DNA of 64,000 nucleotides. Source: a virus. Below the pieces are notes generated by a model. It made no database searches. It was not told where the DNA came from and saw nothing but the letters and a program-made list of their open reading frames with translations. The position numbers were made by a program, and so were the translations under genes. The stretch's first letter is position 1; every line of letters starts with the position of its first letter. Positions 2 to 59,735 of this stretch are shown one piece after another. The stretch covers positions 1 through 64,000 of IMG/VR virus record IMGVR_UViG_3300025096_003363. The stretch is one strand, 5' to 3'.

Positions 2-1684
2 ACTGAGACCTTTACAGGTTCTGATGAAATTGTAGTATTAGATGGTTCGTCGCAAAAGAGAAAAGCTGCTAGCGAGATTGGTAATAGTGTATTCAATAAT
101 GATAGTGGTTGGACAGATTGTACAGGTACCACAACAGCGAGTAACTCGCAGACCTTTACAAACAAAGCCGGTAACATATCACAATGGACAAATGATAGTG
201 GTTATACAACTTGTACGGGTACTACGACAAATAGTAACTCGCAGACCTTTACAAACAAAGCCGGTAACATATCACAATGGACAAATGATAGTGGCTTTAC
301 CGATTGTACAGGAACCACAACAGCGAGTAACTCGCAGACGTTTACAAACAAAGCCGGTAACATATCACAATGGACAAATGATAGTGGCTTTACCGATTGT
401 ACAGGAACCACAACAGCGAGTAACTCGCAGACGTTTACAAACAAAGCTGGTAACATATCACAATGGACAAATGATAGTGGCTTTACCGATTGTACAGGAA
501 CCACAACAGCGAGTAACTCGCAGACCTTTACAAACAAAGGCGGTAATATATCACAATGGACAAATGATAGTGGCTTCGGAACCGGTGATATTACAGCTGT
601 GGTTGCAGGCACATTGTTAGATGGAGGAGCTACGAGTGGTAGTGCAACTTTAAATGTTGATCTTTCAGAGCTTTCTACATCAACTTCTGACGGTGACGGT
701 GATTATTTTGTTGTAACAGATGCATCAGACGCACAGAGAAAACTTACCAAAGGTAATATTAATAACAGCGGGTTTAATAATGATAGCGGGTTTACTGATT
801 GCGCAGGTACGGTTACAAGTGTCGCTGGTGGTGATGGTATGTCCGGTACCGTAACATCTTCCGGTTCGTTGGCAGTTGACAGCACAGTTATAAGAACGAC
901 AGGTACCCAAACCATAGGAGGATCAAAGACATTTTCTAGTGCGATCTGTACAGATTGTGTCCGGGCGACTGATGGAGACGGTCTTAAATTATATGATGAC
1001 GGTGGTAATGGTATATTTGTTGAAGATGGTGGTAATGTTGGTATAGGCTCCACCAACCCTGCTAACCTTCTCGATGTATGTAGCGGTAACTTAAACATAA
1101 ACAACGGGGGGTATTGCTTAAAATTTGGAGGAGCTTCTTCATGCTCTAGCATGTTCTTTTATGGTGATATGTATTGGTGTAATGAAACCGGTGATGTCAG
1201 GATCGATCAAGCGGCAGAAAATAAGGATATTATTTTCAAGACATGTGATGGGTCTATGAAAGAGACCATGAGGATTGATGGTAGTTCTCAACAAGTGGGC
1301 ATAGGTACTACAGCACCAAATGAACTTCTTACTGTTAAGGGTAGTATAAGTGCTAGTGGCGCGTTACAGGGACAACTTGATATTAATGCACAGACCGGTA
1401 CAACATATACTTTAGTAATAGGTGATAAAGGTAAATTAATTACTCTTAGCAATGGGAGTGCTATTACTCTTACAATACCTCCTAACAGCGATGTCGCCTT
1501 TCCTATAGGTACGGAAATTACAGTTACTCAATTAGGAGCAGGTCAGTTAACAATCGCTGAAGGAAGTGGCGTGACGGCTTCTGCTGCTGACGATGAATTA
1601 AAAACACGGGTACAATATAGTGCAGCTGTTTTAACCAAAATAGCTTCTGATACTTGGTTAGTAGCAGGAGACTTAACAGCATAA
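2..1684 (+). CDS. Tail fibre / receptor-binding structural protein, 5'-truncated by the window
   Basis: The frame of ORF 599..1684 reads open from base 2 (TETFTGSDEIVVLDGSSQKRK...). It is Thr/Ser/Gly-rich with 31-aa repeats, GNVGIG and QVGIGTTAP fibre motifs, and a C-terminal 'TYTLVIGDKGKLITL...WLVAGDL' module common in phage fibres. Confidence 0.8.
   Translation, partial: TETFTGSDEIVVLDGSSQKRKAASEIGNSVFNNDSGWTDCTGTTTASNSQTFTNKAGNISQWTNDSGYTTCTGTTTNSNSQTFTNKAGNISQWTNDSGFTDCTGTTTASNSQTFTNKAGNISQWTNDSGFTDCTGTTTASNSQTFTNKAGNISQWTNDSGFTDCTGTTTASNSQTFTNKGGNISQWTNDSGFGTGDITAVVAGTLLDGGATSGSATLNVDLSELSTSTSDGDGDYFVVTDASDAQRKLTKGNINNSGFNNDSGFTDCAGTVTSVAGGDGMSGTVTSSGSLAVDSTVIRTTGTQTIGGSKTFSSAICTDCVRATDGDGLKLYDDGGNGIFVEDGGNVGIGSTNPANLLDVCSGNLNINNGGYCLKFGGASSCSSMFFYGDMYWCNETGDVRIDQAAENKDIIFKTCDGSMKETMRIDGSSQQVGIGTTAPNELLTVKGSISASGALQGQLDINAQTGTTYTLVIGDKGKLITLSNGSAITLTIPPNSDVAFPIGTEITVTQLGAGQLTIAEGSGVTASAADDELKTRVQYSAAVLTKIASDTWLVAGDLTA
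100..575 (+). repeat. Five in-frame 93-bp tandem repeats (31 aa: NDSGFTDCTGTTTASNSQTFTNKAGNISQWT)
   Basis: ACAATGGACAAATGATAGTGG recurs at 181, 274, 367, 460 and 553, an exact 93-nt period. Confidence 0.97.
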
Positions 1685-17098: not shown

Positions 17099-17984
17099 AG
17101 TTCTTATTAAACCATTCAACTGTTTCTTCTAGACCTTCTCTTAAACCTGTAAATTTAAAATCAGTAAATAACTCTCTTACTTTAGAATTATCTGTTGGCT
17201 TTTTATACTGACCATCAGGCTTGTCTGTATTCCAAACAACCTTACCTTCGAATTTAAACACATCTACTAAAATATCAACAACTTCCTTAATAGAGATTTC
17301 TTCACTTGTTGATAGTATTACCGGAGCTGTTCCTTTATATTCATCAAGCAACCTTTCAGTTAATACAGCTACATCTTTAGCAAAAATAAACTCCCTCAAG
17401 GGCTTACCAGTTCCCCATACTTCAAAATCTGTATTATGCTTTTTTGACAAATACATTTTATGTACAAGCATAGGAATTACATGTCCATGTTGTAAAGAAA
17501 AATTATCACCGGGTCCGTAAATGTTTGTTGGAATGACACAAAAATACTCTTTACCGTACTGCTCGTTGATAGTTCTTATTTGAACTTCAGACATTCTTTT
17601 GGCGTATGCATATCCAAAATTTGATTCATGTGGAGGCCCATCGTGAAGGTACTCTGGCCTTATAGGATATTTTACTACACTAGGAAAAATACATGTGGTT
17701 AAAAAGCAAGCTAACCTCTTAACATTATTTTTACGACTCTGTTCAATAACGTTAGTGTTAATACTGATATTTTCATAAAAATAATCAGCCTTGTAGGTCA
17801 TATTCGAGCCTAAACCACCGACCCTAGCTGCTGTGTGAATAACTCGGTCTGGTTTTACCTTTTCAAAAAGATCTGTTGTTTGACTATTGGATATAAGATC
17901 GTAATCCTTGGAAGATACTTTAATAAAATCTTTATTAAAATGACTCCCAACTAATCCAGTTCCTCCGGTTACTAGTGTACTCAT
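17079..17984 (-). CDS. fcl: GDP-L-fucose synthase
   Basis: TGGTGLVG, AARVGGLGSN, YAYAKR, PTNIYGPGDNF, WGTGKPLREF and KPDGQ motifs. Confidence 0.94.
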   Translation of the reverse strand: MSTLVTGGTGLVGSHFNKDFIKVSSKDYDLISNSQTTDLFEKVKPDRVIHTAARVGGLGSNMTYKADYFYENISINTNVIEQSRKNNVKRLACFLTTCIFPSVVKYPIRPEYLHDGPPHESNFGYAYAKRMSEVQIRTINEQYGKEYFCVIPTNIYGPGDNFSLQHGHVIPMLVHKMYLSKKHNTDFEVWGTGKPLREFIFAKDVAVLTERLLDEYKGTAPVILSTSEEISIKEVVDILVDVFKFEGKVVWNTDKPDGQYKKPTDNSKVRELFTDFKFTGLREGLEETVEWFNKNYEDART

Positions 17985-18562
17985 ACAATTACTTTTGTAG
18001 TCGCAGTAAATTGATCTCTAACTTCATTATTGAAATAATCTATTACTGCTTCCATAAATTCTTTAGTCGCTTTTTTTGTTAATCCTGAGGAGTAAGCGAA
18101 AGCCGGGGCTTTCTCACCGGCGACAATATTAATACCGGTATGGCCAACAGCGATATTATCTTTTGAGTAGGTAATAGAAACACTTACCTTACCAGATTGT
18201 CTCACTTTATCATCAGCGCCTACAAACTCATCTTGTACAAGGAGATCGTCGCCATCTATTACAATCGGTTTTTGAATAATATTAGATAAAATATTAGCTA
18301 TAGCTGTATTTAACAGCCGTTGAAAGGAAACAGCTCCAAACGGACATAAGTTTGGGATCTCCCAACAGAAATTTATTGCATCCTGACTGTGAATAAAATC
18401 ATTACTTAATGAATCCTCTAAATCAATTAGAGCGTCAGATACATACATTGGGGATCTAAACGCAACAATATTACCGCATGGCGACACTTCTTTTCGAAAA
18501 AACTTATAAGCAAATCTTTCATGAATTAACTTACCGTCATATACGCTTTGTGTAACTATCAT
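17981..18562 (-). CDS. DUF366-like protein (biotin/lipoate ligase-like fold)
   Basis: YDG..I, IVAFR.P, IDLED, FQRLL, GDDL, KVSVSI and HTGINI match my recollection of DUF366. Confidence 0.7.
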   Translation of the reverse strand: MIVTQSVYDGKLIHERFAYKFFRKEVSPCGNIVAFRSPMYVSDALIDLEDSLSNDFIHSQDAINFCWEIPNLCPFGAVSFQRLLNTAIANILSNIIQKPIVIDGDDLLVQDEFVGADDKVRQSGKVSVSITYSKDNIAVGHTGINIVAGEKAPAFAYSSGLTKKATKEFMEAVIDYFNNEVRDQFTATTKVIV

Positions 18563-32424: not shown

Positions 32425-33180
32425 TTATACCTTTAATGCCATATCCCAGATTAAGAGATGCAACCTAGGTGAAAAATTTACATCCATAGCTTTTGCATAT
32501 TCTGCTACAGCTGGTGCGTTTTCGATATGTTCTTTTCTGCTACCTGAACAAGGCATAAACCATATTCTATTTTTTGGAACCCGGACAGTTTTATCGTCAA
32601 CATATTTACGCCATATTTCGTTAATATCTTCATCAGACGTAATAACAAACTTAAAGCCGGATCCAACCTCTCTATGCCATTTTAACACTTCCGGTTTATA
32701 TGAACGCTCTTCGGGATCCCCGTTGGATATAAGTTTAGGTGAAGTTGTAAACGAGGCAAAAAATTCATCTAACCACCTTTCATCGGGTTTAATTGTAGCA
32801 TTGGTTTCAAAATCTATTACAGGGTGGTAATTATATTTTTTAATAAATGCTGTCATAAACTTAAGAAGCTGCTTTTGCTGGACTAGAGGCTCACCACCGG
32901 TAATTTTGAGAATAGCTCCGTTACGTAATTTGTCTACTAATTTATGCTCTTCAAAATATTTAAATATTTCATTAAATGTCATTTTGTTTTTTACAGACCA
33001 AGAGATATATGAGTCACAGCCATGCGGTGAGTCCTCTGAAGCAAAGCCTTTGCATGTTAGGTTACACATCGAAAGTCTAAAAAACACCGATGGCATGCCA
33101 ACATATTCACCCTCACCTTCAAGTGTATAAAATGCCTTATCATCAGATACAAGGAGAGTTTCTTTATTACAATCAATCAT
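32425..33180 (-). CDS. queE: 7-carboxy-7-deazaguanine synthase (radical SAM)
   Basis: FYTLEGEG, FFRLSMCNLTC..GCDS, TGGEP, ETN, SPKL and PRLH motifs. Start moved to the ATG at 33180, 7 nt after a TATAAT. Confidence 0.9.
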   Translation of the reverse strand: MIDCNKETLLVSDDKAFYTLEGEGEYVGMPSVFFRLSMCNLTCKGFASEDSPHGCDSYISWSVKNKMTFNEIFKYFEEHKLVDKLRNGAILKITGGEPLVQQKQLLKFMTAFIKKYNYHPVIDFETNATIKPDERWLDEFFASFTTSPKLISNGDPEERSYKPEVLKWHREVGSGFKFVITSDEDINEIWRKYVDDKTVRVPKNRIWFMPCSGSRKEHIENAPAVAEYAKAMDVNFSPRLHLLIWDMALKV

Positions 33181-33230
33181 TTCTTTAATTATATTAACAA
33201 CCTGGTGTGAATTCAACTAAATAATAATAC

Positions 33231-33962
33231 ATGAGTGTTAAATCTGCGCGGCTGCGTCGGGTAAGCTCTTCTGATACTGAGCTTACAGAATCCCTTGAAC
33301 ATAATTGGTTGTTTAATTTTAAAATTAAGAGGCCTTTTTACTTTAACCCCAAACATCGCGAGTTCTATAACTGTGTTAAGAACCCTAAAACAAAAATGGG
33401 GTTTGTTGATGGGCCTGCAGGTAGTATGAAGACATATATTGCTGTATACGCCGGTTTAGAATTAATAAGAGAGGAGAAGTTCCAGCGACTGGTTTACATT
33501 AGATCTGTTACAGAATCCGCAGAGAGAAGCTTAGGGTCACTTCCGGGTGAAATTGATGATAAGTTTTCACCGTATTCAATTCCTCTTGAAGAAAAGATAA
33601 CTGAAATTGCTGATCGTGGTACATATGGTATGCTTAAGCAAAAGGGTGTTGTTGAGGCTATACCTGTTAACTTTGTTAGAGGTTTAACGTTTAACAAAGC
33701 TTTAGTTATTGTTGATGAAGCACAAAATTTATCTCGTAAAGAACTAACAACAATCCTAACTAGATTTGGAAGAGATACAAAATATATTGTAATTGGTGAC
33801 TGTAATCAAGCTGATGTAAATAAATCTGGGTATAAAGAAATATTTAACATGTTTAATAATAAACAATGTACGGATAATGATATATATTCCTTTAAGTTCG
33901 GGATCTCAGAAATAGCTAGAAGTAAGATACTTCGTTTTATTTGCTCTGTATTAGGAACTTAA
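33231..33962 (+). CDS. phoH: PhoH-family ATPase
   Basis: GPAGSMKT, LGSLPG, RGLTF, DEAQN, TRFG and GDCNQAD motifs. Confidence 0.92.
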   Translation: MSVKSARLRRVSSSDTELTESLEHNWLFNFKIKRPFYFNPKHREFYNCVKNPKTKMGFVDGPAGSMKTYIAVYAGLELIREEKFQRLVYIRSVTESAERSLGSLPGEIDDKFSPYSIPLEEKITEIADRGTYGMLKQKGVVEAIPVNFVRGLTFNKALVIVDEAQNLSRKELTTILTRFGRDTKYIVIGDCNQADVNKSGYKEIFNMFNNKQCTDNDIYSFKFGISEIARSKILRFICSVLGT

Positions 33963-34663
33963 TTACCCCAAGAAGTACCTTTAAAGGGATCACTAAAATT
34001 AGTGTCTCGATCTACATCACCACCTACACGAGCTGCTTTTGGATTTTCATTGGATGAATCATCCTTTGGCTGTATAGTAGTTGTTACCGGTCCTTCCTGA
34101 TCCACATCTGCAGAAGATTCCCTTTGTTGTTGCCAATCTTTCCAAGTTTTTTCGAATTCTTCATGTGTGACATATAGTTTACCACCTTCCTCATCAACAT
34201 ATGTTGTATTCTCAGTTAAGGGCTTTGTATAACTTGCCCAATTATCCCCATGCTCTGTTACAGTAACGTTTACAACAAAACATCTCCCTTCAGTAACTTC
34301 ATCAATCCACGTATCTGCAGTTTTAAAGACCCATTCTGCAAATCTTTCAACACCTACGCCACCATCCATAATTCTAAGTTGAATTATATTCTTTTCATGA
34401 AGTGTTTTAAAAGTATCTAATTCCGGATCATCACCTGCAACTACAGTAGTATGATCAAATTGATCTCGTAAAGCTTGTTTAAGATCATCTAACCCTCCAA
34501 AGTCAACACACCAGTTTTTATCATCTAATGATTTACAGCCAAAGGTAAATTTAGCTTTAAGTTGATATCCATGCAAATATTTACAGTGGCTATGTGATGC
34601 TCTCCATTGACGAAATGCTGCAGAGCCTAATTCAATTAGTTTTGACGATGTATAAACGCTCAT
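33959..34663 (-). CDS. queD: 6-carboxy-tetrahydropterin synthase-like protein with an acidic C-terminal extension
   Basis: FRQWRA..HCKYLHGY, VDFGGL, FDHT and E..AEW; about 90 extra C-terminal residues. Confidence 0.82.
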   Translation of the reverse strand: MSVYTSSKLIELGSAAFRQWRASHSHCKYLHGYQLKAKFTFGCKSLDDKNWCVDFGGLDDLKQALRDQFDHTTVVAGDDPELDTFKTLHEKNIIQLRIMDGGVGVERFAEWVFKTADTWIDEVTEGRCFVVNVTVTEHGDNWASYTKPLTENTTYVDEEGGKLYVTHEEFEKTWKDWQQQRESSADVDQEGPVTTTIQPKDDSSNENPKAARVGGDVDRDTNFSDPFKGTSWGN

Positions 34664-34750: not shown

Positions 34751-35956
34751 TTAACTGGAAAGCAGAGTCAACTGTCTTAGCAGATCTTTTTGATTAGTTC
34801 CTTCTTTAATGACCCCTTGCTTAATTAATCCCGCTTTAAGCTTATCAATTTCATCATCTTGTAACTTAACACTTTCATCTCTACCGGTAATCTTTACAAT
34901 TGTTTCTGTATTAATCTTTAGCGCAGGTGCTAATGTAGCCGCGGTAATAGGTGAATTTTTGTCTTTAAAAGTTTTTATAGTCACATCAAACGGAGACAGT
35001 TTAGGTTTACTTTCTTTCTTAGGTTGCTTTGCACCTCTTATAATAGCCGTTGGATCTCCCTCCCGGTATATATCACCAAGCTTTAAGCCATCTTTTGTTC
35101 GAAATATTTCTGCTACAAACATTCCCTCGTCGTAGTCTGATGGTGTATCTTCTTTCTTTTCTTTTGTTTCTGTAAACTCTATCTCATACCCCGGTTGAGC
35201 TTCTTGTAAAGTCTTTAACAACTCTATAATAACCTCATCATCTAAACTTTCTAAAAATTTTACTCGACCCATTTTCATGTAGTCAGAAAATTCCTCTTGC
35301 TCTTCATCAGGTAAATCAACAACCCCGAGTTCAGGCTTTCCTTTATATGTAAACTCCGGAATATTTGGACGCGCCTCTGTTATATACTTGAGAAAACCTT
35401 TCATGTTTTTACTGATATACTCAGTTACGTCCCTTGCGGAATCCTCCTTAACACCAGACTTAACTAAAGAACCAATGATTTGTTTCTTCACCGACCCCTT
35501 CTTACTAACAGGGTTATATTTTCCCTCTTTACTTCTAGACCCGGGACCATGCCCCATCGCCGCTCGAGCTTCCTTTATAGTACCGGCGTCAGCACCTTCA
35601 TATTCTCTTGTACCTTTATCATATAAGACACCCTGAAACGGAATTAGGGTTACAGTTTTTGGGCCGACAATTCTACCGAGGTAACCCTTTTTACCACTAG
35701 CTTGCTGCTTTGTAATACCCTTCTTATTAATTTTAACTATTTCTATGCTCGGGTCATTAGCTAGTTCCTTTTTAAGAACCGCGATCGGTTGTTCACCCTT
35801 ATAAGATTTCGTCATTCCCTTTACAAGCTTACCGGTATCAAGATTTATACCCTGTTGAGCGGCTTGCTTTACACCCGCTGCCGCGGCTTTCGCTATTCCA
35901 CGTATCTTATCTGAAAATCCCTCTTCAAGCAGCTCCTTTTGTGACAGTTTTGCCAT
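34751..35956 (-). CDS. Hypothetical late Lys/Glu-rich protein, putative internal head protein
   Basis: TAAATA lies 6 nt upstream of MAKLSQKELLEE; several I/L-x-E sites. Confidence 0.6.
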   Translation of the reverse strand: MAKLSQKELLEEGFSDKIRGIAKAAAAGVKQAAQQGINLDTGKLVKGMTKSYKGEQPIAVLKKELANDPSIEIVKINKKGITKQQASGKKGYLGRIVGPKTVTLIPFQGVLYDKGTREYEGADAGTIKEARAAMGHGPGSRSKEGKYNPVSKKGSVKKQIIGSLVKSGVKEDSARDVTEYISKNMKGFLKYITEARPNIPEFTYKGKPELGVVDLPDEEQEEFSDYMKMGRVKFLESLDDEVIIELLKTLQEAQPGYEIEFTETKEKKEDTPSDYDEGMFVAEIFRTKDGLKLGDIYREGDPTAIIRGAKQPKKESKPKLSPFDVTIKTFKDKNSPITAATLAPALKINTETIVKITGRDESVKLQDDEIDKLKAGLIKQGVIKEGTNQKDLLRQLTLLSS

Positions 35957-36005
35957 ATACAATATTTAGTCTTGAAAACAAAAATTAATATATATAATAT
36001 AAGAT

Positions 36006-36662
36006 ATGGATCGAACTAAAGTTACTAAATTACCGACGGCTAATGGTAATATGCCTCTAACAGGTGTAGAAAAGGAAGAAATTATTGAAGATGCAGCAAA
36101 GGCTTATGAGAAGTACCTAGATGCGCTTAGAATTGACTGGCGAAACGATCCTAATAGCGATAATACACCTAAAAGAGTAGCAAAAGCTTTTGTAACTGAC
36201 TTAGCTGCTGGTTGTTATAACGAACTTCCAAATGTTACAGCATTTCCATCAGATGGATACGATGGAATGGTGTTTCAAGGTGGTATTCCTGTTAAGTCAT
36301 TTTGTTCACACCACCATTTACCGTTTTCAGGTAGAGCTCATGTAGCTTATATACCGTCTCCGAGCGGAAAGGTCATTGGATTGAGTAAATTAAACAGAAT
36401 TGTTGAGCATTATGCAAGAAGACCGCAGATTCAAGAAGGTTTAACCATGCAGATTCATAAAGCTATTGATGAAATTTGTGAAGGTAATAAAGGAGTTGCT
36501 GTTATGATTTCTGCTACTCATACATGTGCTTGTCTAAGGGGAATTAAGCACGATGGGTGTGAAATGAAGACTAGTCGACTTAGTAGTGACTTTTTAGATG
36601 ATATTGCTACTAGAAATGAGTTTTATCAGTTTGTGTCTGACTGGAGAGGTCAATGTATCTAA
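36006..36662 (+). CDS. folE: GTP cyclohydrolase I
   Basis: [32 protein letters not shown] and HTCACLRG motifs. Confidence 0.96.
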
Positions 36663-48040: not shown

Positions 48041-49282
48041 ATGATATCACCGTCACCGTACCCACAGCCACATGTCGCTCCATTAACTCCACCCGGTGGT
48101 AGCTCTAGTTCTATACCTGGTCAAATGCCAGGCGTTCCTTTAAACAAACAAGAGGAGACGCCTCATGAAGCAAACCTTCCACGGTATGTAAATTACCTAG
48201 CAGATTACTCAGGTTGTGGTCATTGGAGAATTCTTTGGCCGGAGGCAACTATTAACGCTAGAGGTGACGGCATGTCACAATCAACAACTGCTATGGTTGC
48301 TGATCCAAGATGGTATCAAAATGTAACGGCTGTAAAGTTACAGCGACAAGCGTCTTCAGCACAAGTAGAATTCGTTAAGTACTTAAAACAAATTCAACAG
48401 GAACATGGATTTAAACTAATGTATGAAGTTGATGATGTTGTGTTTAAGGAAGTAATTCCAGATTATAATAAGTTTAAATTTGCATTTGATACGGAAGAAA
48501 TTCGAGAAAATTGTATCGAAATTATTAACTTAGTTGATGAAGTAACAGTCACATGTGACTTTATGAGAAGGCTTTATCAAGAAAAAACCGATCAGAAAAA
48601 TATTACAGTTATTCCAAACTTTATTCCAAATGGTTGGATGGGTCAACTTTTCAATCCTAGAGATATAGAAAGAAATTACGAGGCAAATAAAAGAAAGCCA
48701 CGTATTCTATATACAGGCTCCGGAGCACACTACGATGTAGAAAATAAAACAGGCGGTAAGGACGATATGTATGAAGTGCGCGATTTTATAAGAAAGACTG
48801 TCGATAAATATCAGTGGATTTTTGTTGGGGCCTTTCCTCCACAACTTGCTGATTTAGTTGAGCAACAAAAGATTGAATTTTACCAGTGGCAAACATTATT
48901 AAAATATCCATACTTTGTTAGCAGCTTAAGAGCTCAATTAATGGTTGCGCCACTTCAAGTTAACGATTTTAATAGAGCTAAATCTGATATCAAATATATT
49001 GAAGGATGTATACTCGGTATACCATGCCTGTGTCAGGATATGGATACGTATGCTGCAGCGCCTGATAACCTCAAATTTAGTTCTGTAGAAGAGTTTGAAG
49101 ATAAAATTAATCGCATCCTAAACCCGAAAAAGAAGAACAAATATTTTCAAAATGTTCATAAGCTTAGAAGAATAGGTGAACAGCGAATTCTTGAACTAGA
49201 TGAAAATATTGGCGCGCATCTTGAAGCGCTAAATACACCGTACGGTAGTTCTGAAAGACGGTTCCTTAGAGAGTGGAATTAG
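48041..49282 (+). CDS. GT-B fold glycosyltransferase within the replication module
   Basis: SGCGHWRI..P, QRQ, YEVDD, VTVT, VIPN and APLQVNDFNRAKSDIKYIE motifs. Confidence 0.8.
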   Translation: MISPSPYPQPHVAPLTPPGGSSSSIPGQMPGVPLNKQEETPHEANLPRYVNYLADYSGCGHWRILWPEATINARGDGMSQSTTAMVADPRWYQNVTAVKLQRQASSAQVEFVKYLKQIQQEHGFKLMYEVDDVVFKEVIPDYNKFKFAFDTEEIRENCIEIINLVDEVTVTCDFMRRLYQEKTDQKNITVIPNFIPNGWMGQLFNPRDIERNYEANKRKPRILYTGSGAHYDVENKTGGKDDMYEVRDFIRKTVDKYQWIFVGAFPPQLADLVEQQKIEFYQWQTLLKYPYFVSSLRAQLMVAPLQVNDFNRAKSDIKYIEGCILGIPCLCQDMDTYAAAPDNLKFSSVEEFEDKINRILNPKKKNKYFQNVHKLRRIGEQRILELDENIGAHLEALNTPYGSSERRFLREWN

Positions 49283-53075: not shown

Positions 53076-53242
53076 GGGTGTGCCTGAATAAACATTTTAA
53101 GCAAGAGTGTTAAGGGGGCTGCAACTTACATGGAGGGTCAACTGACTATTATGTGTAAGGGAACGGAGTACAAGTAGGGAAAAAGATGAAACTGCATCTT
53201 GCCCACCCGAAAGTTGGAGGTAACCAGAAAATCCTCTCACCC
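53076..53242 (+). ncRNA. Candidate structured non-coding RNA (multi-stem)
   Basis: Closing stem GGGTG/CACCC encloses four hairpins. G-U pairs favour the + strand. No plausible ORF; followed by a terminator. Confidence 0.6.
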
Positions 53243-53251
53243 ACCTTTTTT

Positions 53252-53277
53252 AAAAGCCCCGAAAGGGGCTTTTTTTA
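53252..53277 (+). terminator. Rho-independent terminator
   Basis: AAAAGCCCC-GAAA-GGGGCTTTTTTT. Confidence 0.93.
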
Positions 53278-53305
53278 TTGAATTTAAGGACGTATATTAT
53301 ATAAT
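53278..53305 (+). promoter_or_regulatory. Sigma70-type promoter of uvsX
   Basis: TTGAAT-N16-TATAAT, 7 nt before the ATG at 53313. Confidence 0.7.
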
Positions 53306-53312
53306 ACTTTAT

Positions 53313-54449
53313 ATGGATAAAGATATTACTAGTGCATTGGATGCTATTGATAAAGTAAACCCCTTCGCAACTTATTTAGATAACAATTCACTCAGTCACG
53401 TTGGATCATGGATTGATACAGGATCTTATGTGCTAAACGCAATTATTTCCGGTTCAATTCACGGCGGAATACCTAAAGGTAGAGTAACAGTACTTGCCGG
53501 TGAGTCGATGACAGGTAAGTCGCTTTTTGTCCAAAAAATTCTAGCCAAGGCCCAGGAGGACGGGCTCGTCCCTGTTATCTTTGATACTGAAAATGCTATT
53601 GACCCGGAAGGAGCTGCAAGATTAGGGCTAGATATTAGCAAAGTTAAATATGTTCCTTGTACTAGTATTGAACAAACTCGTAATTCACTGTATAAGTTTC
53701 TTATGGTGGTAAAAGAAAAGGGACTAGAGGGTAAGTTTATTGTAGCTATTGACTCACTAGCTAATCTTCAATCAGAGCTTGAACTGTCGCGGATGAGTAA
53801 AGACAGTGTTAGTTCAGATATGGGTACAAAAGCGCGCGCAATGAAGACATTAATGCAAACTTGTACAAATTTAGGGTCAGTTACACAAACCACTATCCTA
53901 TGTACTAATCATGTCTATGATGACCCAACAGCTCTGTTTCCTTCTATTGAAAAAAATATGCCAGGTGGTAAATCATGCATTTATCTTCCATCAGTAACAG
54001 TTCAACTAGCACGCAAGCCAATGAAATCAGATGGCGGTAAGACTGTTGATGGGGAATTGGCAGTTGGTCAGAAAAAATACGCTGGAATTATTATTAGAGC
54101 CCTTACGCGTAAAAATAGATTTATTAAACAGTACCTTGAAGGTGAAATATACCTTTCATTTGCTTCTGGACTTGATCGCTACTATGGATTAGTTGATCTG
54201 GCCGTTGGTGTTGGTGCAGTAGTTCAAACTGGAGCAACTTATCAGCTTGAAGATGGTACTAAGCTAGGCTATTATAAGAATTGGAGGAAGGATGTTAAAC
54301 TTTGGGAAGAGACTATTCTTCCAAAACTTGAAGAACGAATTAAAGATGAGTGGTCTTATAGTAATAAAGAAGAAGAGCCACCTGATGAATTAGGTTTAGA
54401 TGGTTTAGATGATTTAATTAATGAAAAAGAAACTAGTACTGACTCTTAG
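53313..54449 (+). CDS. uvsX: RecA-like recombinase UvsX
   Basis: IDTGSYVLN, AGESMTGKS, FDTENA, IDSL, NHVY and GG motifs. Start corrected to 53313 because the longer ORF runs through the terminator. Confidence 0.93.
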   Translation: MDKDITSALDAIDKVNPFATYLDNNSLSHVGSWIDTGSYVLNAIISGSIHGGIPKGRVTVLAGESMTGKSLFVQKILAKAQEDGLVPVIFDTENAIDPEGAARLGLDISKVKYVPCTSIEQTRNSLYKFLMVVKEKGLEGKFIVAIDSLANLQSELELSRMSKDSVSSDMGTKARAMKTLMQTCTNLGSVTQTTILCTNHVYDDPTALFPSIEKNMPGGKSCIYLPSVTVQLARKPMKSDGGKTVDGELAVGQKKYAGIIIRALTRKNRFIKQYLEGEIYLSFASGLDRYYGLVDLAVGVGAVVQTGATYQLEDGTKLGYYKNWRKDVKLWEETILPKLEERIKDEWSYSNKEEEPPDELGLDGLDDLINEKETSTDS

Positions 54450-55179
54450 TGGGGGAATGGACTCATCTGTGCTGTTGTATATGGCACAAGATAGAGGCTA
54501 TGATCATATACATACCATAACCTTTGACTATGGTCAAAGGCATAAACAAGAACTCGCTTGTGTTAAAAAACAAATTAATAATTTTAATAACATGTTTAGC
54601 GGGTGGTTTAATTTAAAGATTACTAATAAGGTCTTAGATGTAAAGTATATTAAAGACATTGCGCCTACCTCATCTTTAACTAATAAAGATATTGATAATC
54701 CTAATATTAGCGAGATGGCAGGTGATGCACAGCCTGTCTCATACGTACCGTTTCGGAATTTAATGTTTCTATCTATTTGCTCGTCATATGCTGAAAGTGT
54801 AGGTGCAGATACAGTATGGTATGGTGCTGCACAGGTTGATTCACTAGCTGGGTATTGGGACGGTAGTGAAGAGTTTGTTAATGTAGTTAATGAAGTAACA
54901 GATCTTAATAGAGAGAACAGAATTAACATTGAAGCACCGCTTCTTGACATGTCGAAGGCTGCAATTGTTAAAGAAGGAATTAGACTAGGAGTTACATATG
55001 GTGATACATGGACATGCTATTCGAATAGAGAAGATGGGCTAGCTGATGCCACAACTCCGTCAAGTAGTATGCGAATAACGGGGTTTATTGATGCTGGGTA
55101 TGAAGACCCTATTCAATATGTCCAACAGGAAAAGTTGGATGACCTATACAAAGAAAATAACTGCAAGGAGTGTGCTTAG
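54421..55179 (+). CDS. queC: 7-cyano-7-deazaguanine synthase, variant lacking the CxxCxxC motif
   Basis: LSGGMDS, FDYGQRH..EL, YVPFRN and TWTCY motifs. Confidence 0.9.
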   Translation: MKKKLVLTLSGGMDSSVLLYMAQDRGYDHIHTITFDYGQRHKQELACVKKQINNFNNMFSGWFNLKITNKVLDVKYIKDIAPTSSLTNKDIDNPNISEMAGDAQPVSYVPFRNLMFLSICSSYAESVGADTVWYGAAQVDSLAGYWDGSEEFVNVVNEVTDLNRENRINIEAPLLDMSKAAIVKEGIRLGVTYGDTWTCYSNREDGLADATTPSSSMRITGFIDAGYEDPIQYVQQEKLDDLYKENNCKECA

Positions 55180-56591
55180 AGACCGTAGCGTCTAAGCTCT
55201 TCTAGCTGCCAGTGTGTCTTAGGCTTGTATTTTTCCTTAAATGACTGACTTTTAACTTCAGTCAGTTTATTACGTTTGTCAGAAGCTACTTGCTCGTTAA
55301 TATAACGGGAAGTATCGGTTTGATGTGAGTCGAGCATTGGACTGTAACTAAAGTCCTCTTCTAGTGTCTCTTCATTCTCTCCATTTAATTTCTTTTTTGC
55401 ATGCTCTCTTTTATCATCATCGACAAGAGCATCTAAAACATCTTCGTAATCGGTTGAAGGGATATAATCCTCCGGCTGCTCTTTAGTTAAGAAATGATCA
55501 AGCTCTAAGCCACCAAATTCATCATCCTCTTCATCACTGACATTTGCTCTAAACTGACATCTTTTTTTAGCTAACTTTGATGGAGGCGATGCACAATACT
55601 GACTCATTGACTCACCAGCTGCTTTTGCGGCTCTAGTTAAAGCGCCTTCTGTCCCCTTCTTCTTCATACCCTTAACTGCACCCTGAATCCAATCTTCATT
55701 ATCTTCTGGTGTAGTAAGACCACCTCCCTCTTCACCCATTGAATACTCATCAGGCATACCCTCCGGTTCGTCTATTCCATAACCCACTTGCTCATCTTCG
55801 TCTGGAGCCATAACAACAACTACACTATCACTAATTTTATCAACGTCTCTCTTTAGCGCTGCTTCAATCTTATCAATACCGTGTGCTATAACTGCTTTAG
55901 CAAGCGGCGTTCCAGGGTCAACTGAAAACTGTACAGTATCATTACTAATATCTAAACCATCCTCATTAGCATACTTAGAAACGATATTACCGACATCTTC
56001 AACACGCTCAGCATCTCTAATTTTAATCTCAATAAAGGTAGTTGGATCTGCTTTTGAATCTTCTAAGCTTTGCGCTAATTCTTGTTCTGCGTCATCCAAC
56101 TGACCAACTGTATCTTCAACCGCGTCCCCTACATCTGCACCTGCTTTAATATCCTTTGCGAGCTCTATAGCAGCTTTTTGCGCCGCGTATTTTTCTTCTC
56201 TTCCTCTATTAGTAGTAGCTCTATTAATATACGTCGCGAGACCGTCTTTTATTGCATCAGCAATCTCATCTTTACTTTTTTCAATTTCTCTTTCCTTAGA
56301 ATCTAATAAAGCTAATAAGTTATTCTTTTTAGCAGAAAACCCTGTACCCCTTTTCGCAGCATTCAATTCTTCATCACTAATTACCTCGAGATCATATAAT
56401 ACCGTTCTAATAAAGTTAATTGTATCTAATGGTGCAGAACTAAACCCCGCAGATCTTAGCTCTCTTGTAACAGGACCGAAAGAAGGGTGATATTTTTCAT
56501 AAGGAGATTTTTTAGCTTCCTCGAGAAACTCTGACCTGTTGAATAAATCATTAAAGCCACTAAAATTGTCGGTGTAGTTAAAGGAACTCAT
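55176..56591 (-). CDS. Hypothetical acidic late protein, putative internal head protein
   Basis: 471 aa; TATAAATA 6 nt upstream; FLEE/A site near the N-terminus. Confidence 0.65.
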   Translation of the reverse strand: MSSFNYTDNFSGFNDLFNRSEFLEEAKKSPYEKYHPSFGPVTRELRSAGFSSAPLDTINFIRTVLYDLEVISDEELNAAKRGTGFSAKKNNLLALLDSKEREIEKSKDEIADAIKDGLATYINRATTNRGREEKYAAQKAAIELAKDIKAGADVGDAVEDTVGQLDDAEQELAQSLEDSKADPTTFIEIKIRDAERVEDVGNIVSKYANEDGLDISNDTVQFSVDPGTPLAKAVIAHGIDKIEAALKRDVDKISDSVVVVMAPDEDEQVGYGIDEPEGMPDEYSMGEEGGGLTTPEDNEDWIQGAVKGMKKKGTEGALTRAAKAAGESMSQYCASPPSKLAKKRCQFRANVSDEEDDEFGGLELDHFLTKEQPEDYIPSTDYEDVLDALVDDDKREHAKKKLNGENEETLEEDFSYSPMLDSHQTDTSRYINEQVASDKRNKLTEVKSQSFKEKYKPKTHWQLEELRRYGL

Positions 56592-56608
56592 TTAATATAT
56601 TTATATCT

Positions 56609-57061
56609 ATGAAGCTGAATTATAAGGATTTTAACAAAATGACTGAAAAAGAGCTGTGTAAACTACCAGGAGTAGGAAGAACCACAGCTAGACGTATTGT
56701 TGGATTTAGACCTTTTCGTCATAATGACGATTTATTTAAAGTAAAGGGACTAGGGAAAAAGACACTTAAAAATTTGGGAATTCAAAAAACCAAAAAGAAA
56801 AAGAAAAAATGGTATACCATCGATGGTGTCGATTACCCAGATTGTGCACTGGCTAGAGATACGAGATACGGTCACATTGATCTGTTTTGGAGAGTACCTA
56901 AAGAACACCGGGAAAGTATAGGTCCCCCATCCCCGTGGATACTCAGAAATCGTCGTATAGATGAAAAGACAAGGGCAGAAGGGCCTGATGGGCTTATGAG
57001 TAGGTACGTCGACAACTCTTTTATGTGGGAACCAGGGTTTAAATTTCCATGGGAAGATTGA
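56609..57061 (+). CDS. Helix-hairpin-helix (ComEA-like) DNA-binding protein
   Basis: LCKLPGVGRTTARRI and LFKVKGLGKKT tandem HhH motifs. Confidence 0.82.
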   Translation: MKLNYKDFNKMTEKELCKLPGVGRTTARRIVGFRPFRHNDDLFKVKGLGKKTLKNLGIQKTKKKKKKWYTIDGVDYPDCALARDTRYGHIDLFWRVPKEHRESIGPPSPWILRNRRIDEKTRAEGPDGLMSRYVDNSFMWEPGFKFPWED

Positions 57062-57090
57062 TTACCTCGTAAAATATATTAACATATGTT

Positions 57091-57753
57091 ATGTGCGCTA
57101 TTTTTGGATCGTTCGACAAAACAATGTTAGAGATTTTATACCAAGCTAATAAGGAGCGTGGTAATTTTGCTAGCAGCGTTGTATGCATATCAGATGATGA
57201 TCAATATATCTCTAAACATGAAGGTGATATAAATTTTGATAAGTTTAATTATGCTGGTAGGGAAAATATAGAATATCTTCTTGGGCATGTACAGGCACCT
57301 ACTTCCGCTAAAAGAACCTGGAACTACAACACATCTCACCCATTCGAATCTCTGACATGGCTGGTTAGTCATAATGGTGTTTTAACAAATGAGAAAAAAC
57401 TAAGAAGAAAACATACAAGATTTTTAGAAAATCCCGTTGATACAGCGGTAATAGTTGAACTATTAGAAAAATTTACTCAGGTAAATAAAAACCCAGTTAA
57501 TACCATAAAGCAAGTATTATCAATGTTAGAGGGGTCGTATGCTTTAAGTATGGTGCATTCTAATACTAACGATATCTATATAGCGAGAGTAGGGTCACTT
57601 CTTCACTATAATAATAAGGGCAACTACTCTACAATGATGGGATCCGGTTATAAAATATTACCTGAAGGAATTATAATGAAGTTAAATAAAAAAACAAAAC
57701 GATGGAATAAAGTAGGCACTTTTGAATCCAAGTCACCGTTTACATTTGTATGA
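57091..57753 (+). CDS. Class II (Ntn) glutamine amidotransferase domain, stand-alone
   Basis: MCAIFG (Cys2), RG, GH..APT, HPF, HNGVL and VDT motifs. Confidence 0.85.
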   Translation: MCAIFGSFDKTMLEILYQANKERGNFASSVVCISDDDQYISKHEGDINFDKFNYAGRENIEYLLGHVQAPTSAKRTWNYNTSHPFESLTWLVSHNGVLTNEKKLRRKHTRFLENPVDTAVIVELLEKFTQVNKNPVNTIKQVLSMLEGSYALSMVHSNTNDIYIARVGSLLHYNNKGNYSTMMGSGYKILPEGIIMKLNKKTKRWNKVGTFESKSPFTFV

Positions 57754-58409
57754 GTAAAACATTTATATTTTCTGCTACAGCAGGTAAAAAAGAAGACTCA
57801 ATGCTTTACAATACGTGTAAAGATGAAAATATCGACATCTTTATAAAAGAGTATAATAAAGAGTCTATACAAAAAACCTACAACAAGGCGATTGATTTTT
57901 CAATTAGGGAAGGAGTTAAAAACTTAGTATTAGTTCATGACGATGTAATACTCGAAGCTTTTTCTGAAAGAAGAATTGAAAGAAATTTTAAAAATTTTGA
58001 TCTAATTGGTGTAGCTGGCTGCAATCAGGTCAAGCTCGAAAAGCCAGTTCTCTGGCATTTAATGGGCGGTGGCTTCGACTCCGGTAATTTAGTAGGCGCA
58101 GTTGCCCACGGTACTGAAAATCAAAAAAATATGGGAGGGTTTGGATTTTATCCAAATAGAGCTATTTTAGTAGACGGAGTTTTTCTCGTAATTAAAAGAA
58201 AAGTATTTAAAAAAATTAGATTTGATGAAACCTGTCCTTCTAAATGGCATTTTTATGATCTTGATTACTCTATGCAGTGTCATAAAGCCGGCTTTAAAGT
58301 TGGAGTCGGCGACTTTATTGTAACTCATAAATCCCCCGGTCTTACTTCTTTTACTGAAGAATTTCAGAAGGGCGAAGATTGGTTTTTAGATAAGTGGAAA
58401 ACCGAATAA
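57750..58409 (+). CDS. GT2-like glycosyltransferase
   Basis: YNKAI, VHDDV, IGVAG, VDGVFL and FDE..WHFYDLDYS motifs. Confidence 0.82.
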   Translation: MSKTFIFSATAGKKEDSMLYNTCKDENIDIFIKEYNKESIQKTYNKAIDFSIREGVKNLVLVHDDVILEAFSERRIERNFKNFDLIGVAGCNQVKLEKPVLWHLMGGGFDSGNLVGAVAHGTENQKNMGGFGFYPNRAILVDGVFLVIKRKVFKKIRFDETCPSKWHFYDLDYSMQCHKAGFKVGVGDFIVTHKSPGLTSFTEEFQKGEDWFLDKWKTE

Positions 58410-58427
58410 CATATAATACCATAAGGC

Positions 58428-59735
58428 GTGAGTAAGTTAGACTTAGACTATTTTGAAAATGTTCTTATATATAAGTCCCTTACAGATAGTGGGTATTTGG
58501 CTTCTATTGCTGATTTTGTAAAGCCTGAATATTTTAAAGATAAAGCGATCGCTAGTATCTTTAATATTATTAAAGACTTTACAGAAAAAAGAAATAAGCT
58601 TCCAACAACGACAGAGATTAAGTCTTACTTAGTATCAGATGAACAAAAGAACTCTTTTAAAGAGCTCGTTAAGACGTTTAGTGATATTGATAAGACTCTA
58701 GATAAAGAAGAACTATATGATAATACGGAACAGTTTCTTAAAGAGAAGGCCGTATATCATACAATGCTTAATGTAGCAGAAGATGTATCAAAAGGTAAAG
58801 TTGATACATCAGTCGTTTTAGATAAATTTGAAAAATCATGCAACATTAATTTAGTAACTGATTTAGGACTAGAACTGTATGGTGATGTTGATAAGCTTAT
58901 TGATGATCTTAACTGTGTTGAAAGATATGTTCCAAGTAAATGGGAGTGGTTAGACAATTGTCTCGGAGGCGGTTTTTTAGAAGCTGGAAAAGCTTTATAT
59001 GTGTTTGCTGGTGAGACAAATATTGGTAAGTCAATATTTTTGGGTAATATTGCCAGTAATATGGCTGAAGATGGTAAAAACGTTTTGTTAGTTACTTTAG
59101 AAATGTCTGAGCTGTTATATGCTAGACGAATTTGTAGTAACGTTACAAAAATTCCAATGAAGCAGTTAGCTGAAAATGCACCTAGTATTAAACAGGCTAT
59201 GAATGATCAAGGTGGTAAAATTTTTATTAAAGAGTTTCCACCTGCCACTATTACGGCTAATCAATTAAAAGCGTTTGTTAAGAAGTTTCAAGAACAAGGC
59301 ATTAAGCTAGATGCTATTGTATTAGATTACCTAAACTTGATGCACTCACCTGTAGGTAATAACTCTTATGAGCGCATTAAACATGTAACTGAACAGGTAC
59401 GTGCAATGAGCTATTTGTTTAACTGTCCTATTATTTCAGCCACACAGTTAAACCGAGCTGGGTTTGATACAGATAACCCTGATCTAGCAACAATTTCTGA
59501 ATCTATCGGGTTGGCGGCCACTGCTGATGCTATTATATCTATCTTTCAAAATGAAGAAGATAGAGGAATTGGAGTCATACGCTTAGGTATGATGAAAAAC
59601 CGGTATGGTCCGCGTGGTATTACACAAGCTATGAGAATCGATTATAATACGCTAACAATCGAACAAGCTGATGATATCGAAATAGATGAAGATATGGATA
59701 ATACTCTTAATGTATTAGCTGGGCTTGCATCATAA
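58428..59735 (+). CDS. gp41: Replicative DnaB-like helicase
   Basis: AGETNIGKS, TLEMSE, LDYLNL, SATQLNR, SESIGL and KNRYG motifs. Confidence 0.95.
   Translation: MSKLDLDYFENVLIYKSLTDSGYLASIADFVKPEYFKDKAIASIFNIIKDFTEKRNKLPTTTEIKSYLVSDEQKNSFKELVKTFSDIDKTLDKEELYDNTEQFLKEKAVYHTMLNVAEDVSKGKVDTSVVLDKFEKSCNINLVTDLGLELYGDVDKLIDDLNCVERYVPSKWEWLDNCLGGGFLEAGKALYVFAGETNIGKSIFLGNIASNMAEDGKNVLLVTLEMSELLYARRICSNVTKIPMKQLAENAPSIKQAMNDQGGKIFIKEFPPATITANQLKAFVKKFQEQGIKLDAIVLDYLNLMHSPVGNNSYERIKHVTEQVRAMSYLFNCPIISATQLNRAGFDTDNPDLATISESIGLAATADAIISIFQNEEDRGIGVIRLGMMKNRYGPRGITQAMRIDYNTLTIEQADDIEIDEDMDNTLNVLAGLAS

What the first reader, a model, noticed from the sequence alone, without database searches (positions are those of the whole stretch)
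54421..58409. queC + stand-alone Gat + HhH protein + glycosyltransferase beside the helicase: possible glycosylated 7-deazaguanine DNA modification
Seen in sequence: folE, queD, queE and queC are all present. After queC (past one opposite-strand gene) come an HhH DNA-binding protein, a class II amidotransferase, a translationally coupled GT2-like enzyme and gp41. Known: FolE-QueD-QueE-QueC make preQ0, Gat-QueC fusions convert it to archaeosine (G+), and phages insert such bases into DNA through DpdA to resist restriction. Inference: a split Gat/QueC makes dG+ or a related base, and the coupled GT may add a sugar, giving a possibly undescribed hypermodified base. No DpdA/TGT is recognisable in this window.
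Basis: partly seen in the sequence, partly recalled or inferred. Interest (0 to 1): 0.75.

Follow-up and report, generated by a model that had tools for sequence, protein, structure and literature searches.

The report
Precursor arm of phage deazaguanine DNA
This stretch of an uncultured marine T4-like phage holds the base-making half of a known kind of system that replaces guanine in phage DNA with a 7-deazaguanine, helped by a separate glutamine-splitting enzyme; the neighbouring sugar transferase is kept by sister phages that lack the system, so a sugar-bearing new base is unlikely.

Summary
QueC, an antisense ORF, an HhH protein, a class II amidotransferase (Gat), an ATGA-coupled GT-A glycosyltransferase and gp41 follow one another. 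FolE, QueD and QueE lie 20 kb upstream.

No TGT/DpdA is in the window or in the rest of the 98.8 kb contig. That contig is only about 47% complete.

Collinear near-complete relatives carry a DpdA3-type transglycosylase:
- It has a TGT fold.
- It is 47% identical to the DpdA3 of Flavobacterium phage immuto_2-6A.
- A DpdN-like formyltransferase, a kinase-like gene and QueF sit beside it, as in immuto.

The lineage therefore most likely makes dPreQ1 or fdPreQ1 DNA, not dG+.

Phyletic test on five 93-100% complete genomes: Gat and DUF366 are present only where QueC, FolE, QueF and DpdA3 are present. The GT is present in all five, always just upstream of gp41, including three genomes with no deazaguanine gene at all.

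The same stand-alone Gat family follows QueF-QueC in Pseudomonas phage pf16 and in Vibrio phage 6E35.1a. Its likeliest role is to supply ammonia to QueC.

Verdict: a new member of a known kind, with an undescribed split Gat helper. The glycosylated-base idea is not supported. This scan has already met the same module on other DNA.

The parts
54421..55179 (+). QueC (7-cyano-7-deazaguanine synthase), a variant lacking three of the four canonical Zn cysteines
   Evidence: PF06508 E 1.5e-52 and TIGR00364 154.7 bits. PDB QueC 2pg3/3bl5 at E 6e-26 and 2e-21. The CxxCxxC motif is replaced by ADATTPSSS, and a C-terminal Cys tail is conserved.
57091..57753 (+). Stand-alone class II (Ntn) glutamine amidotransferase, the proposed glutaminase partner of QueC
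   Evidence: GATase_6/7. Cys2, HNG and DT motifs are invariant. It matches the Gat half of PHROG 10428, the Gat-QueC family. Same family as pf16 gp77 and Vibrio 6E35.1a p0048, both directly after QueC. Present only in genomes that have que genes.
36006..36662 (+). FolE, GTP cyclohydrolase I
   Evidence: PF01227 E 7.4e-47.
33959..34663 (-). QueD (6-carboxytetrahydropterin synthase), long form of 234 aa
   Evidence: PF01242 E 2.8e-17 and phrog_2389 E 8.6e-36.
32425..33216 (-). QueE, radical SAM 7-carboxy-7-deazaguanine synthase
   Evidence: phrog_2076 E 2.8e-45 and NCBIfam QueE models.
17981..18562 (-). DUF366 protein, which co-varies with the deazaguanine genes; role unknown
   Evidence: PF04017 E 2.2e-19. 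Present in G001 and G011, absent in the que-less G007-G009.
56609..57061 (+). Small HhH (ComEA-like) DNA-binding protein; variable accessory, link to the system uncertain
   Evidence: HHH_3 E 1.4e-11. Present in many QueC-bearing loci but absent in the G001 and G011 sub-lineages.
57750..58409 (+). GT-A glycosyltransferase (PF13712), a core gene upstream of gp41; judged not to be part of the deazaguanine system
   Evidence: PF13712. AF2 pLDDT 84; best PDB matches are majastridin-UDP and STIV A197. Found in 8 of 8 genomes, including three without any que gene.
55176..56591 (-). Antisense acidic, fast-evolving ORF (471 aa); not part of the system
   Evidence: No family. Identity across relatives is 27-85%. 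An antisense ORF of 534-546 aa holds the same position in que-less genomes.
58428..59735 (+). gp41/DnaB-type replicative helicase (context)
   Evidence: DnaB_C E 5.3e-28 and phrog_19 E 1.6e-76.

Best explanation
The window holds the base-making arm of a DpdA3-type phage system that swaps guanine in DNA for a 7-deazaguanine. It is the kind described for Flavobacterium phage immuto_2-6A (fdPreQ1).

Proposed pathway:
1. FolE, QueD and QueE make 7-carboxy-7-deazaguanine (CDG).
2. QueC turns CDG into preQ0.
3. The stand-alone class II amidotransferase most likely hydrolyses glutamine to feed ammonia to QueC, as a split AsnB-like or Gat-QueC-like arrangement.
4. QueF (preQ0 to preQ1), a kinase-like protein, the DpdA3 transglycosylase and, in most large relatives, a DpdN-like formyltransferase finish the job.

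The step 4 genes lie just beyond the left end of this truncated contig.

Shown: the gene identities, the TGT fold and DpdA3 orthology in relatives, and the phyletic patterns.

Inferred: that this very phage carries the missing arm, the ammonia-donor role of Gat, and the final base.

The GT-A gene is a core neighbour of gp41 in the whole clade and does not belong to this system.
For: Gene identities.

Transglycosylase in relatives:
- The contig is 47% complete. It is collinear with the 93%-complete G001.
- G001:188257-189063 matches phiST DpdA3 (phmmer E 1e-8, blastp 2e-10).
- Its AF2 model (pLDDT 92) hits only TGT structures at the top (E 5e-9, probability 1).
- It is 46.8% identical (E 1e-63) to immuto DpdA3 and 46% to the CP220 protein.
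- It is present in G001, G002, G003, G006 and G011.

Tailoring arm in relatives:
- G001 has formyltransferase-AAA_28-QueF.
- The formyltransferase is 44% identical (E 9e-38) to immuto DpdN.
- Immuto shows the same order DpdA3-DpdN-kinase-QueF, as do 20 IMG/VR loci.
- QueF and the formyltransferase are in all four large QueC-bearing relatives.

Gat belongs with QueC:
- Gat and DUF366 are present in G001 and G011 and absent in G007-G009, exactly like QueC, FolE, QueF and DpdA3.
- The Gat family sits directly after QueF-QueC in pf16 and in Vibrio 6E35.1a.

GT stands apart: it is present in 8 of 8 genomes.
Against: - DpdA3, QueF and the formyltransferase are not seen in this contig. Nor are they seen in ten other partial contigs of its closest sub-lineage, all of which break in or near a hypervariable fibre-like region. 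Their presence here rests on collinearity.
- Immuto makes fdPreQ1 without any Gat homologue, so Gat is not required for that pathway.
- L076 has QueC and the GT but no Gat between them.
- No biochemical datum exists for this Gat family. Fused Gat-QueC is the dG+ enzyme in coliphage 9g (PMC6884629).
- QueC here lacks three Zn ligands, so its product could differ from preQ0.
Confidence: 0.68

Rival explanations
1. One reading: split Gat and QueC make archaeosine (dG+), and the coupled GT adds a sugar, giving a glycosylated 7-deazaguanine in DNA.
For: - Gat and GT overlap by ATGA here and in the most distant relative with both, L078.
- Both lie in the replication module.
- Fused Gat-QueC gives dG+ in phage 9g (PMC6884629).
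- I found no paper excluding glycosylated deazaguanines.
Against: - The GT ortholog is kept at the same site in three 96-100% complete genomes with no QueC, FolE, QueF, DpdA3 or Gat.
- L076 keeps the GT without Gat.
- In the G011 lineage other genes separate Gat and the GT.
- The GT has no homologue in 50,697 isolated phages, including all known deazaguanine phages.
- Relatives carry QueF and DpdN.
- No long GT homologue that I checked is fused to Gat.
Confidence: 0.06
2. Gat with QueC makes G+ or stops at the amide (ADG), and that base, without sugar, is what DpdA3 inserts in this particular phage. QueF and DpdN may be absent from this sub-lineage.
For: - QueF, DpdN and DpdA3 are not visible in this contig or in its ten closest partial contigs.
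- DpdA3 phages insert different bases: ADG in CP220, DG in phiST (PMC10516641).
- The remodelled QueC Zn site could alter the product.
Against: - All four large relatives with this QueC variant have QueF and the formyltransferase.
- The same Gat family co-occurs with QueF in pf16 and in Vibrio phages.
- The partial contigs end before the expected position.
Confidence: 0.15
3. Gat works with the GT, for example on an amino-sugar or another amidation step for a glycan, and is unrelated to QueC.
For: - ATGA coupling.
- The phage carries a large glycan island, noted in an earlier finding.
- The closest NCBIfam hits of Gat are GlmS-type.
Against: - Gat is absent wherever the que genes are absent, while the GT stays.
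- Gat follows QueC in pf16 and in Vibrio phages, which have no such GT.
- Gat lacks any sugar-isomerase domain.
Confidence: 0.07
4. The que genes serve tRNA queuosine or host metabolism rather than DNA modification.
For: No transglycosylase is seen in this contig.
Against: Relatives carry a DpdA3 47% identical to that of a phage whose DNA is reported fully modified, plus DpdN (PMC10516641).
Confidence: 0.04

Closest known systems
[quoted passage not shown] 2023, PMC10516641)
   Same: - Same enzyme set in the collinear relatives.
- DpdA3 is 46.8% identical and DpdN 44% identical.
- Same micro-order DpdA3-DpdN-kinase-like-QueF.
   Different: - The genes are scattered over at least three sites of a T4-like genome.
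- A stand-alone Gat and a DUF366 protein are added.
- QueC lacks the Zn cysteine triad.
- In this contig the DpdA3/QueF arm is not visible.
- Many relatives lack DpdN, so they are predicted to make plain dPreQ1.
Gat-QueC fusion of coliphage 9g and relatives (dG+; Hutinet et al. 2019, PMC6884629)
   Same: A class II amidotransferase paired with QueC. Both halves match PHROG 10428.
   Different: - Here there are two separate genes with two genes between them.
- It is paired with a DpdA3-type, not a DpdA1-type, transglycosylase.
- It is accompanied by QueF in relatives.
- dG+ is not the predicted product.
QueF-QueC-Gat cassettes of Pseudomonas phage pf16 (gp79-gp77) and Vibrio phage 6E35.1a (p0050-p0048); Gat is annotated as hypothetical there
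   Same: Same stand-alone Gat family along its full length, with invariant Cys2, GHxQAPT, HNG, D117 and the C-terminal SPF motif. All are T4-like phages that carry QueF.
   Different: - In those phages Gat directly follows QueC.
- The Vibrio record annotates a tgt-like gene next to the cassette. I take it to be DpdA2-type, as in Vibrio phage nt-1 (PMC6884629); I did not test this.
- Those phages have no PF13712 GT.
Campylobacter phage CP220 group (T4-like, 100% dADG, DpdA3; PMC10516641)
   Same: T4-like myoviruses. DpdA3 is 46% identical, and their gp41 is among the closest isolate hits.
   Different: Per PMC10516641, CP220 has a QueC* proposed to stop at the amide. The CP220 QueC keeps its Zn cysteines. 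No Gat-family match was found in Campylobacter phages.
DNA glycosyltransferases of T-even and other phages (T4 alpha/beta-GT on 5hmC; arabinosyltransferases on 5hoC, PMC13326640)
   Same: A GT gene embedded among replication genes.
   Different: - Those enzymes need a hydroxylated pyrimidine made by a ThyA homologue. None is found in 8 genomes.
- The GT here is a minimal GT-A closest to majastridin and STIV A197.
- No acceptor is known.

Membership tests
DpdA3-type phage 7-deazaguanine DNA modification (immuto fdPreQ1 kind) | preQ0 pathway FolE, QueD, QueE and QueC encoded by the phage | tested here: met
   All four are in the window.
DpdA3-type phage 7-deazaguanine DNA modification (immuto fdPreQ1 kind) | DpdA3 DNA transglycosylase (TGT fold) | tested here: inconclusive
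   - Absent from the 98.8 kb contig, which is 47% complete.
- Present in collinear relatives G001, G002, G003 and G011, with a TGT fold and 47% identity to immuto DpdA3.
- Its expected position lies beyond the contig end.
DpdA3-type phage 7-deazaguanine DNA modification (immuto fdPreQ1 kind) | QueF (preQ0 to preQ1) and the DpdN formyltransferase | tested here: inconclusive
   Not in this contig. Present in all four large QueC-bearing relatives. DpdN is absent from many other relatives.
DpdA3-type phage 7-deazaguanine DNA modification (immuto fdPreQ1 kind) | Modified base present in virion DNA | not testable with these tools
   Uncultured phage; needs nucleoside LC-MS or raw-signal analysis.
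Gat-QueC archaeosine (G+) synthase | Gat and QueC fused in one polypeptide | tested here: not met
   They are separate genes 1.9 kb apart with two genes between them.
Gat-QueC archaeosine (G+) synthase | Catalytically competent class II (Ntn) glutaminase | tested here: met
   Cys2 and the HNG and D117-T motifs are invariant across the family.
Gat-QueC archaeosine (G+) synthase | The pathway ends at G+, with no nitrile reductase competing for preQ0 | tested here: not met
   A bimodular QueF is in all large relatives, and in pf16 and Vibrio phages that carry the same Gat family.
QueC (TIGR00364 / PF06508) | PP-loop SGGxDS motif and overall fold | tested here: met
   LSGGMDS is present. The score is above the TIGR00364 cut-off, and PDB QueC hits reach E 6e-26.
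QueC (TIGR00364 / PF06508) | C-terminal four-cysteine Zn site (C...CxxCxxC) | tested here: not met
   Only the first Cys is kept and the rest read ADATTPSSS. L078, Vibrio and CP220 QueC keep the motif.
Phage DNA-base glycosyltransferase | Co-occurrence with the pathway that makes its acceptor base | tested here: not met
   The GT is present in 8 of 8 genomes whatever their que content. No ThyA-type hydroxylase or hydroxymethylase was found.

The most novel reading that the evidence does not exclude
The PF13712 GT-A, and perhaps the second core GT at 48041-49282, is a DNA glycosyltransferase of this whole marine T4-like clade. In the QueC-bearing members it uses the aminomethyl group of dPreQ1 as acceptor, giving a glycosylated 7-deazaguanine not yet described.
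Probability: 0.06. Interest if true: 0.85.

Novelty: new member of a known kind. Interest (0 to 1): 0.33.

Why it matters
- It places a DpdA3-type guanine-replacement system, known so far from a few isolates, in a very abundant uncultured marine T4-like clade. I recovered hundreds of IMG/VR contigs of that clade.
- Sister genomes with and without the system form a natural contrast for studying restriction evasion in the sea.
- It assigns a testable role to a stand-alone glutaminase family that is annotated as hypothetical in pf16 and in Vibrio phages.
- It removes a tempting but unsupported idea, a sugar on deazaguanine.
- It leaves one open question: what two core glycosyltransferases do inside the replication module.

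Tried and rejected
- Hidden DpdA in the window. orf403 (34751-35962), between queD and folE, mirrors the place of the tgt-like gene in Vibrio 6E35.1a. It has no Cys, is K/E-rich, has no family or PDB hit, shows no similarity to that protein and is absent from G001. Rejected.
- Sequence-only detection of the TGT relationship failed. A profile of the DpdA3-like family against PDB gave no TGT. hhalign against the Vibrio tgt-like protein gave nothing. Pfam gave only a sub-threshold DUF6610 hit. The fold search settled it.
- Complex prediction on QueC + Gat returned no verdict. It is not used as evidence either way.
- Alignment A4 was too diverse for the search for related loci.
- Bridging the contig's left end failed. 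An exact-match scan of metagenome contigs found nothing. Relatives of the terminal fibre-like ORF are a noisy repeat family. Ten closest partial contigs lack QueF and DpdA3 and end in the same variable region.
- A Gat-GT fusion was sought among long GT homologues. P0017 is a TPR-GT fusion and the others have no Gat.
- In the Tet_JBP search nothing rang, not even in the controls, so it is uninformative.
- PADLOC added nothing.
Full report
**What is there**

The window is the first 64 kb of a 98.8 kb IMG/VR contig that CheckV rates 47% complete. It is a very divergent T4-like phage. Its gp41 is only about 30% identical to those of cyanophages and Campylobacter phages, and no isolated phage matches at the DNA level.

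- UvsX 53199-54449.
- QueC 54421-55179.
- An antisense acidic ORF 55176-56591 with no family.
- An HhH protein 56609-57061.
- A class II Ntn amidotransferase 57091-57753. It starts MCAIFG and keeps the HNG and DT motifs.
- A PF13712 glycosyltransferase 57750-58409, whose ATG overlaps the Gat stop as ATGA.
- gp41 58428-59735.
- A DHH phosphoesterase.

QueE (32425-33216), QueD (33959-34663) and FolE (36006-36662) lie 20 kb upstream. A DUF366 gene sits at 17981-18562. Neither Pfam TGT nor DUF6610 matches anywhere on the contig.

**The module is conserved**

Seventy-four IMG/VR loci found with the GT, plus 19 more found with a profile, share the order UvsX-QueC-antisense ORF-(HhH)-Gat-GT-gp41-DHH. 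The antisense ORF evolves fast (27-85% identity). The HhH gene is missing from some sub-lineages, G001 among them. Neither looks like a core part.

**The missing transglycosylase**

- G001, a 196.9 kb relative rated 93% complete, is collinear with this contig over about 100 kb.
- A 268-aa protein at G001:188257-189063 matches DpdA3 of Cellulophaga phage phiST (phmmer E 1e-8, blastp 2e-10).
- Sequence profiles did not reach TGT.
- The AlphaFold model (pLDDT 92) has tRNA-guanine transglycosylases as all of its top 50 PDB matches (E 5e-9, probability 1).
- The protein is 46.8% identical (E 1e-63) to the annotated DNA guanine transglycosylase of Flavobacterium phage immuto_2-6A, and 46% identical to a protein of Campylobacter phage CP220.
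- Both of those phages are DpdA3 phages with fully replaced guanine, according to Cui, Hutinet et al. 2023 (PMC10516641).
- The gene is present in G001, G002, G003, G006 and G011.

**The tailoring arm**

- Close to it, G001 encodes DUF3307, a formyltransferase, an AAA_28 kinase-like protein and a bimodular QueF.
- The formyltransferase hits only the immuto phages among 50,697 phage records (44% identity, E 9e-38). There it is the gene next to DpdA3, which the paper names DpdN.
- Immuto has the same order DpdA3-DpdN-kinase-QueF.
- Twenty IMG/VR loci show DpdA3-(formyltransferase)-AAA_28-QueF. Many of them lack the formyltransferase.
- QueF and the formyltransferase are in all four large QueC-bearing relatives.

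**Why this contig does not show that arm**

- In G001 these genes start just past a giant fibre-like ORF. This contig begins inside a positionally equivalent ORF that is only weakly similar.
- Ten partial contigs of the closest sub-lineage also lack QueF and DpdA3. The one I inspected ends in the same variable region.
- The presence of the DpdA3/QueF arm in this very phage is therefore an inference from collinearity, not an observation.

**The decisive phyletic test**

A more distant GT representative (P0011) led to T4-like contigs in which the GT ortholog (42-48% identity) again lies directly upstream of gp41, with no QueC or Gat nearby. I compared whole-genome searches of these three with G011 (100% complete, terminal repeats) and G001 (93%).

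| Genome | Completeness | QueC, FolE, QueF, DpdA3-like, formyltransferase, Gat, DUF366 | PF13712 GT |
|---|---|---|---|
| G001 | 93% | all present | present, upstream of gp41 |
| G011 | 100%, terminal repeats | all present | present, upstream of gp41 |
| G007 | 96% | none present | present, upstream of gp41 |
| G008 | 100% | none present | present, upstream of gp41 |
| G009 | 100%, terminal repeats | none present | present, upstream of gp41 |

- Gat and DUF366 therefore travel with the deazaguanine genes, and the GT does not.
- The three que-less genomes probably count as one loss or gain event. One event is enough to show that the GT has a function without deazaguanine.
- L076 keeps QueC and the GT without Gat between them.
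- In the G011 lineage a dGTP-diphosphohydrolase-like gene and a DUF5856 gene separate Gat from the GT.
- The GT has no homologue in any isolated phage at E 1e-3, and that collection holds the known deazaguanine phages.

**What the GT is**

- Its model (pLDDT 84) is a minimal GT-A. The best matches are UDP-bound majastridin and STIV A197.
- The family is large, with 3676 representative clusters. It includes a TPR-GT fusion but no Gat fusion among those I checked.
- Its acceptor stays unknown.

**What Gat does**

- Its closest phage relatives are pf16 gp77 and a 201-aa protein of Vibrio phage 6E35.1a.
- In both phages it directly follows QueF-QueC.
- The three align end to end with invariant catalytic motifs.
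- Both halves of PHROG 10428, the fused Gat-QueC family, are matched by the window's Gat and QueC.

QueC is a PP-loop ATP pyrophosphatase that needs ammonia to turn CDG into the amide and then the nitrile. A class II glutaminase joined to a PP-loop synthetase is the design of asparagine synthetase B. Both statements are established knowledge that I did not test here.

Because this Gat family always comes with QueF, and immuto makes fdPreQ1 without it, I read Gat as an optional glutamine-dependent ammonia donor for QueC rather than a G+ synthase. This is an inference, at roughly 50-55%. A complex prediction gave no verdict.

**Verdict**

It is probably wrong on dG+ and not supported on the sugar.

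The system is a new member of the DpdA3 (immuto) kind, with an undescribed split Gat helper. I found no paper that mentions the stand-alone Gat or a glycosylated deazaguanine.

This scan has met the same module repeatedly on other DNA. One earlier follow-up (e1-6071500) reached the same reading. I reached mine from my own searches.

Noticed in passing
window 54421-55179; alignment A7: The QueC of this clade has lost three of the four canonical Zn-binding cysteines (C...CxxCxxC reads ADATTPSSS). It keeps invariant C47 and C199 and a near-invariant Cys in a C-terminal tail (NNCKECA here). Only the most distant relative, L078, keeps the classical motif. The metal site may be rebuilt or lost.
   Followed up: partly
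window 48041-49282 (+): A second glycosyltransferase (phrog_7162) lies between the gp46-like gene and the polymerase-sized ORF. It is also in 8 of 8 genomes (49-75% identity), with or without deazaguanine genes. That makes two core GTs inside the replication module with no known acceptor.
   Followed up: partly
L091:907-1494 (G001); L238:10472-10996 (immuto): An AAA_28 kinase-like gene always sits between DpdA3(-DpdN) and QueF in the marine clade. The matching gene in phage immuto is annotated as thymidylate kinase. It is a conserved component of DpdA3 systems with no assigned role.
   Followed up: partly
L146:9690-10004; L003:6643-7332: A dATP/dGTP diphosphohydrolase-like gene (PF18909) lies between Gat and the GT in the G011 lineage. 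A MazG/PRA-PH-like gene follows Gat in pf16. These may clear dGTP. None was found in G000-G003.
   Followed up: partly
L091:3089-8087 (G001 183-188 kb): Next to the DpdA3-like gene the relative G001 carries CsgF and CsgG homologues, a FecR-like protein and a CHASE2-nucleotide cyclase. This is unusual cargo for a phage.
   Followed up: no
L117 (G001:3-359): G001 has a second, truncated DpdA3-like copy (74% identical over 119 aa) at the very start of the contig. It is either a paralogue or a sign of how the contig ends.
   Followed up: no
window 55176-56591 (-): An acidic, low-complexity antisense ORF between QueC and HhH evolves very fast (27-85% identity among close relatives). A positional counterpart of 534-546 aa sits in the que-less genomes.
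   Followed up: partly
window 34751-35962 (-): A 403-aa K/E-rich, cysteine-free ORF is wedged between queD and folE. It has no family and is absent from the collinear relative G001.
   Followed up: partly
window 2-1684 and G004 78.7-96.6 kb (L239): The contigs of this sub-lineage all break in a hypervariable fibre-like region carrying the repeated motif VGIGTxxPxxxLTVxGxISA. This is the likely reason why assemblies miss the QueF/DpdA3 arm.
   Followed up: partly
P0017: One GT-family representative is fused to an N-terminal TPR domain. That hints that some members act on proteins.
   Followed up: no
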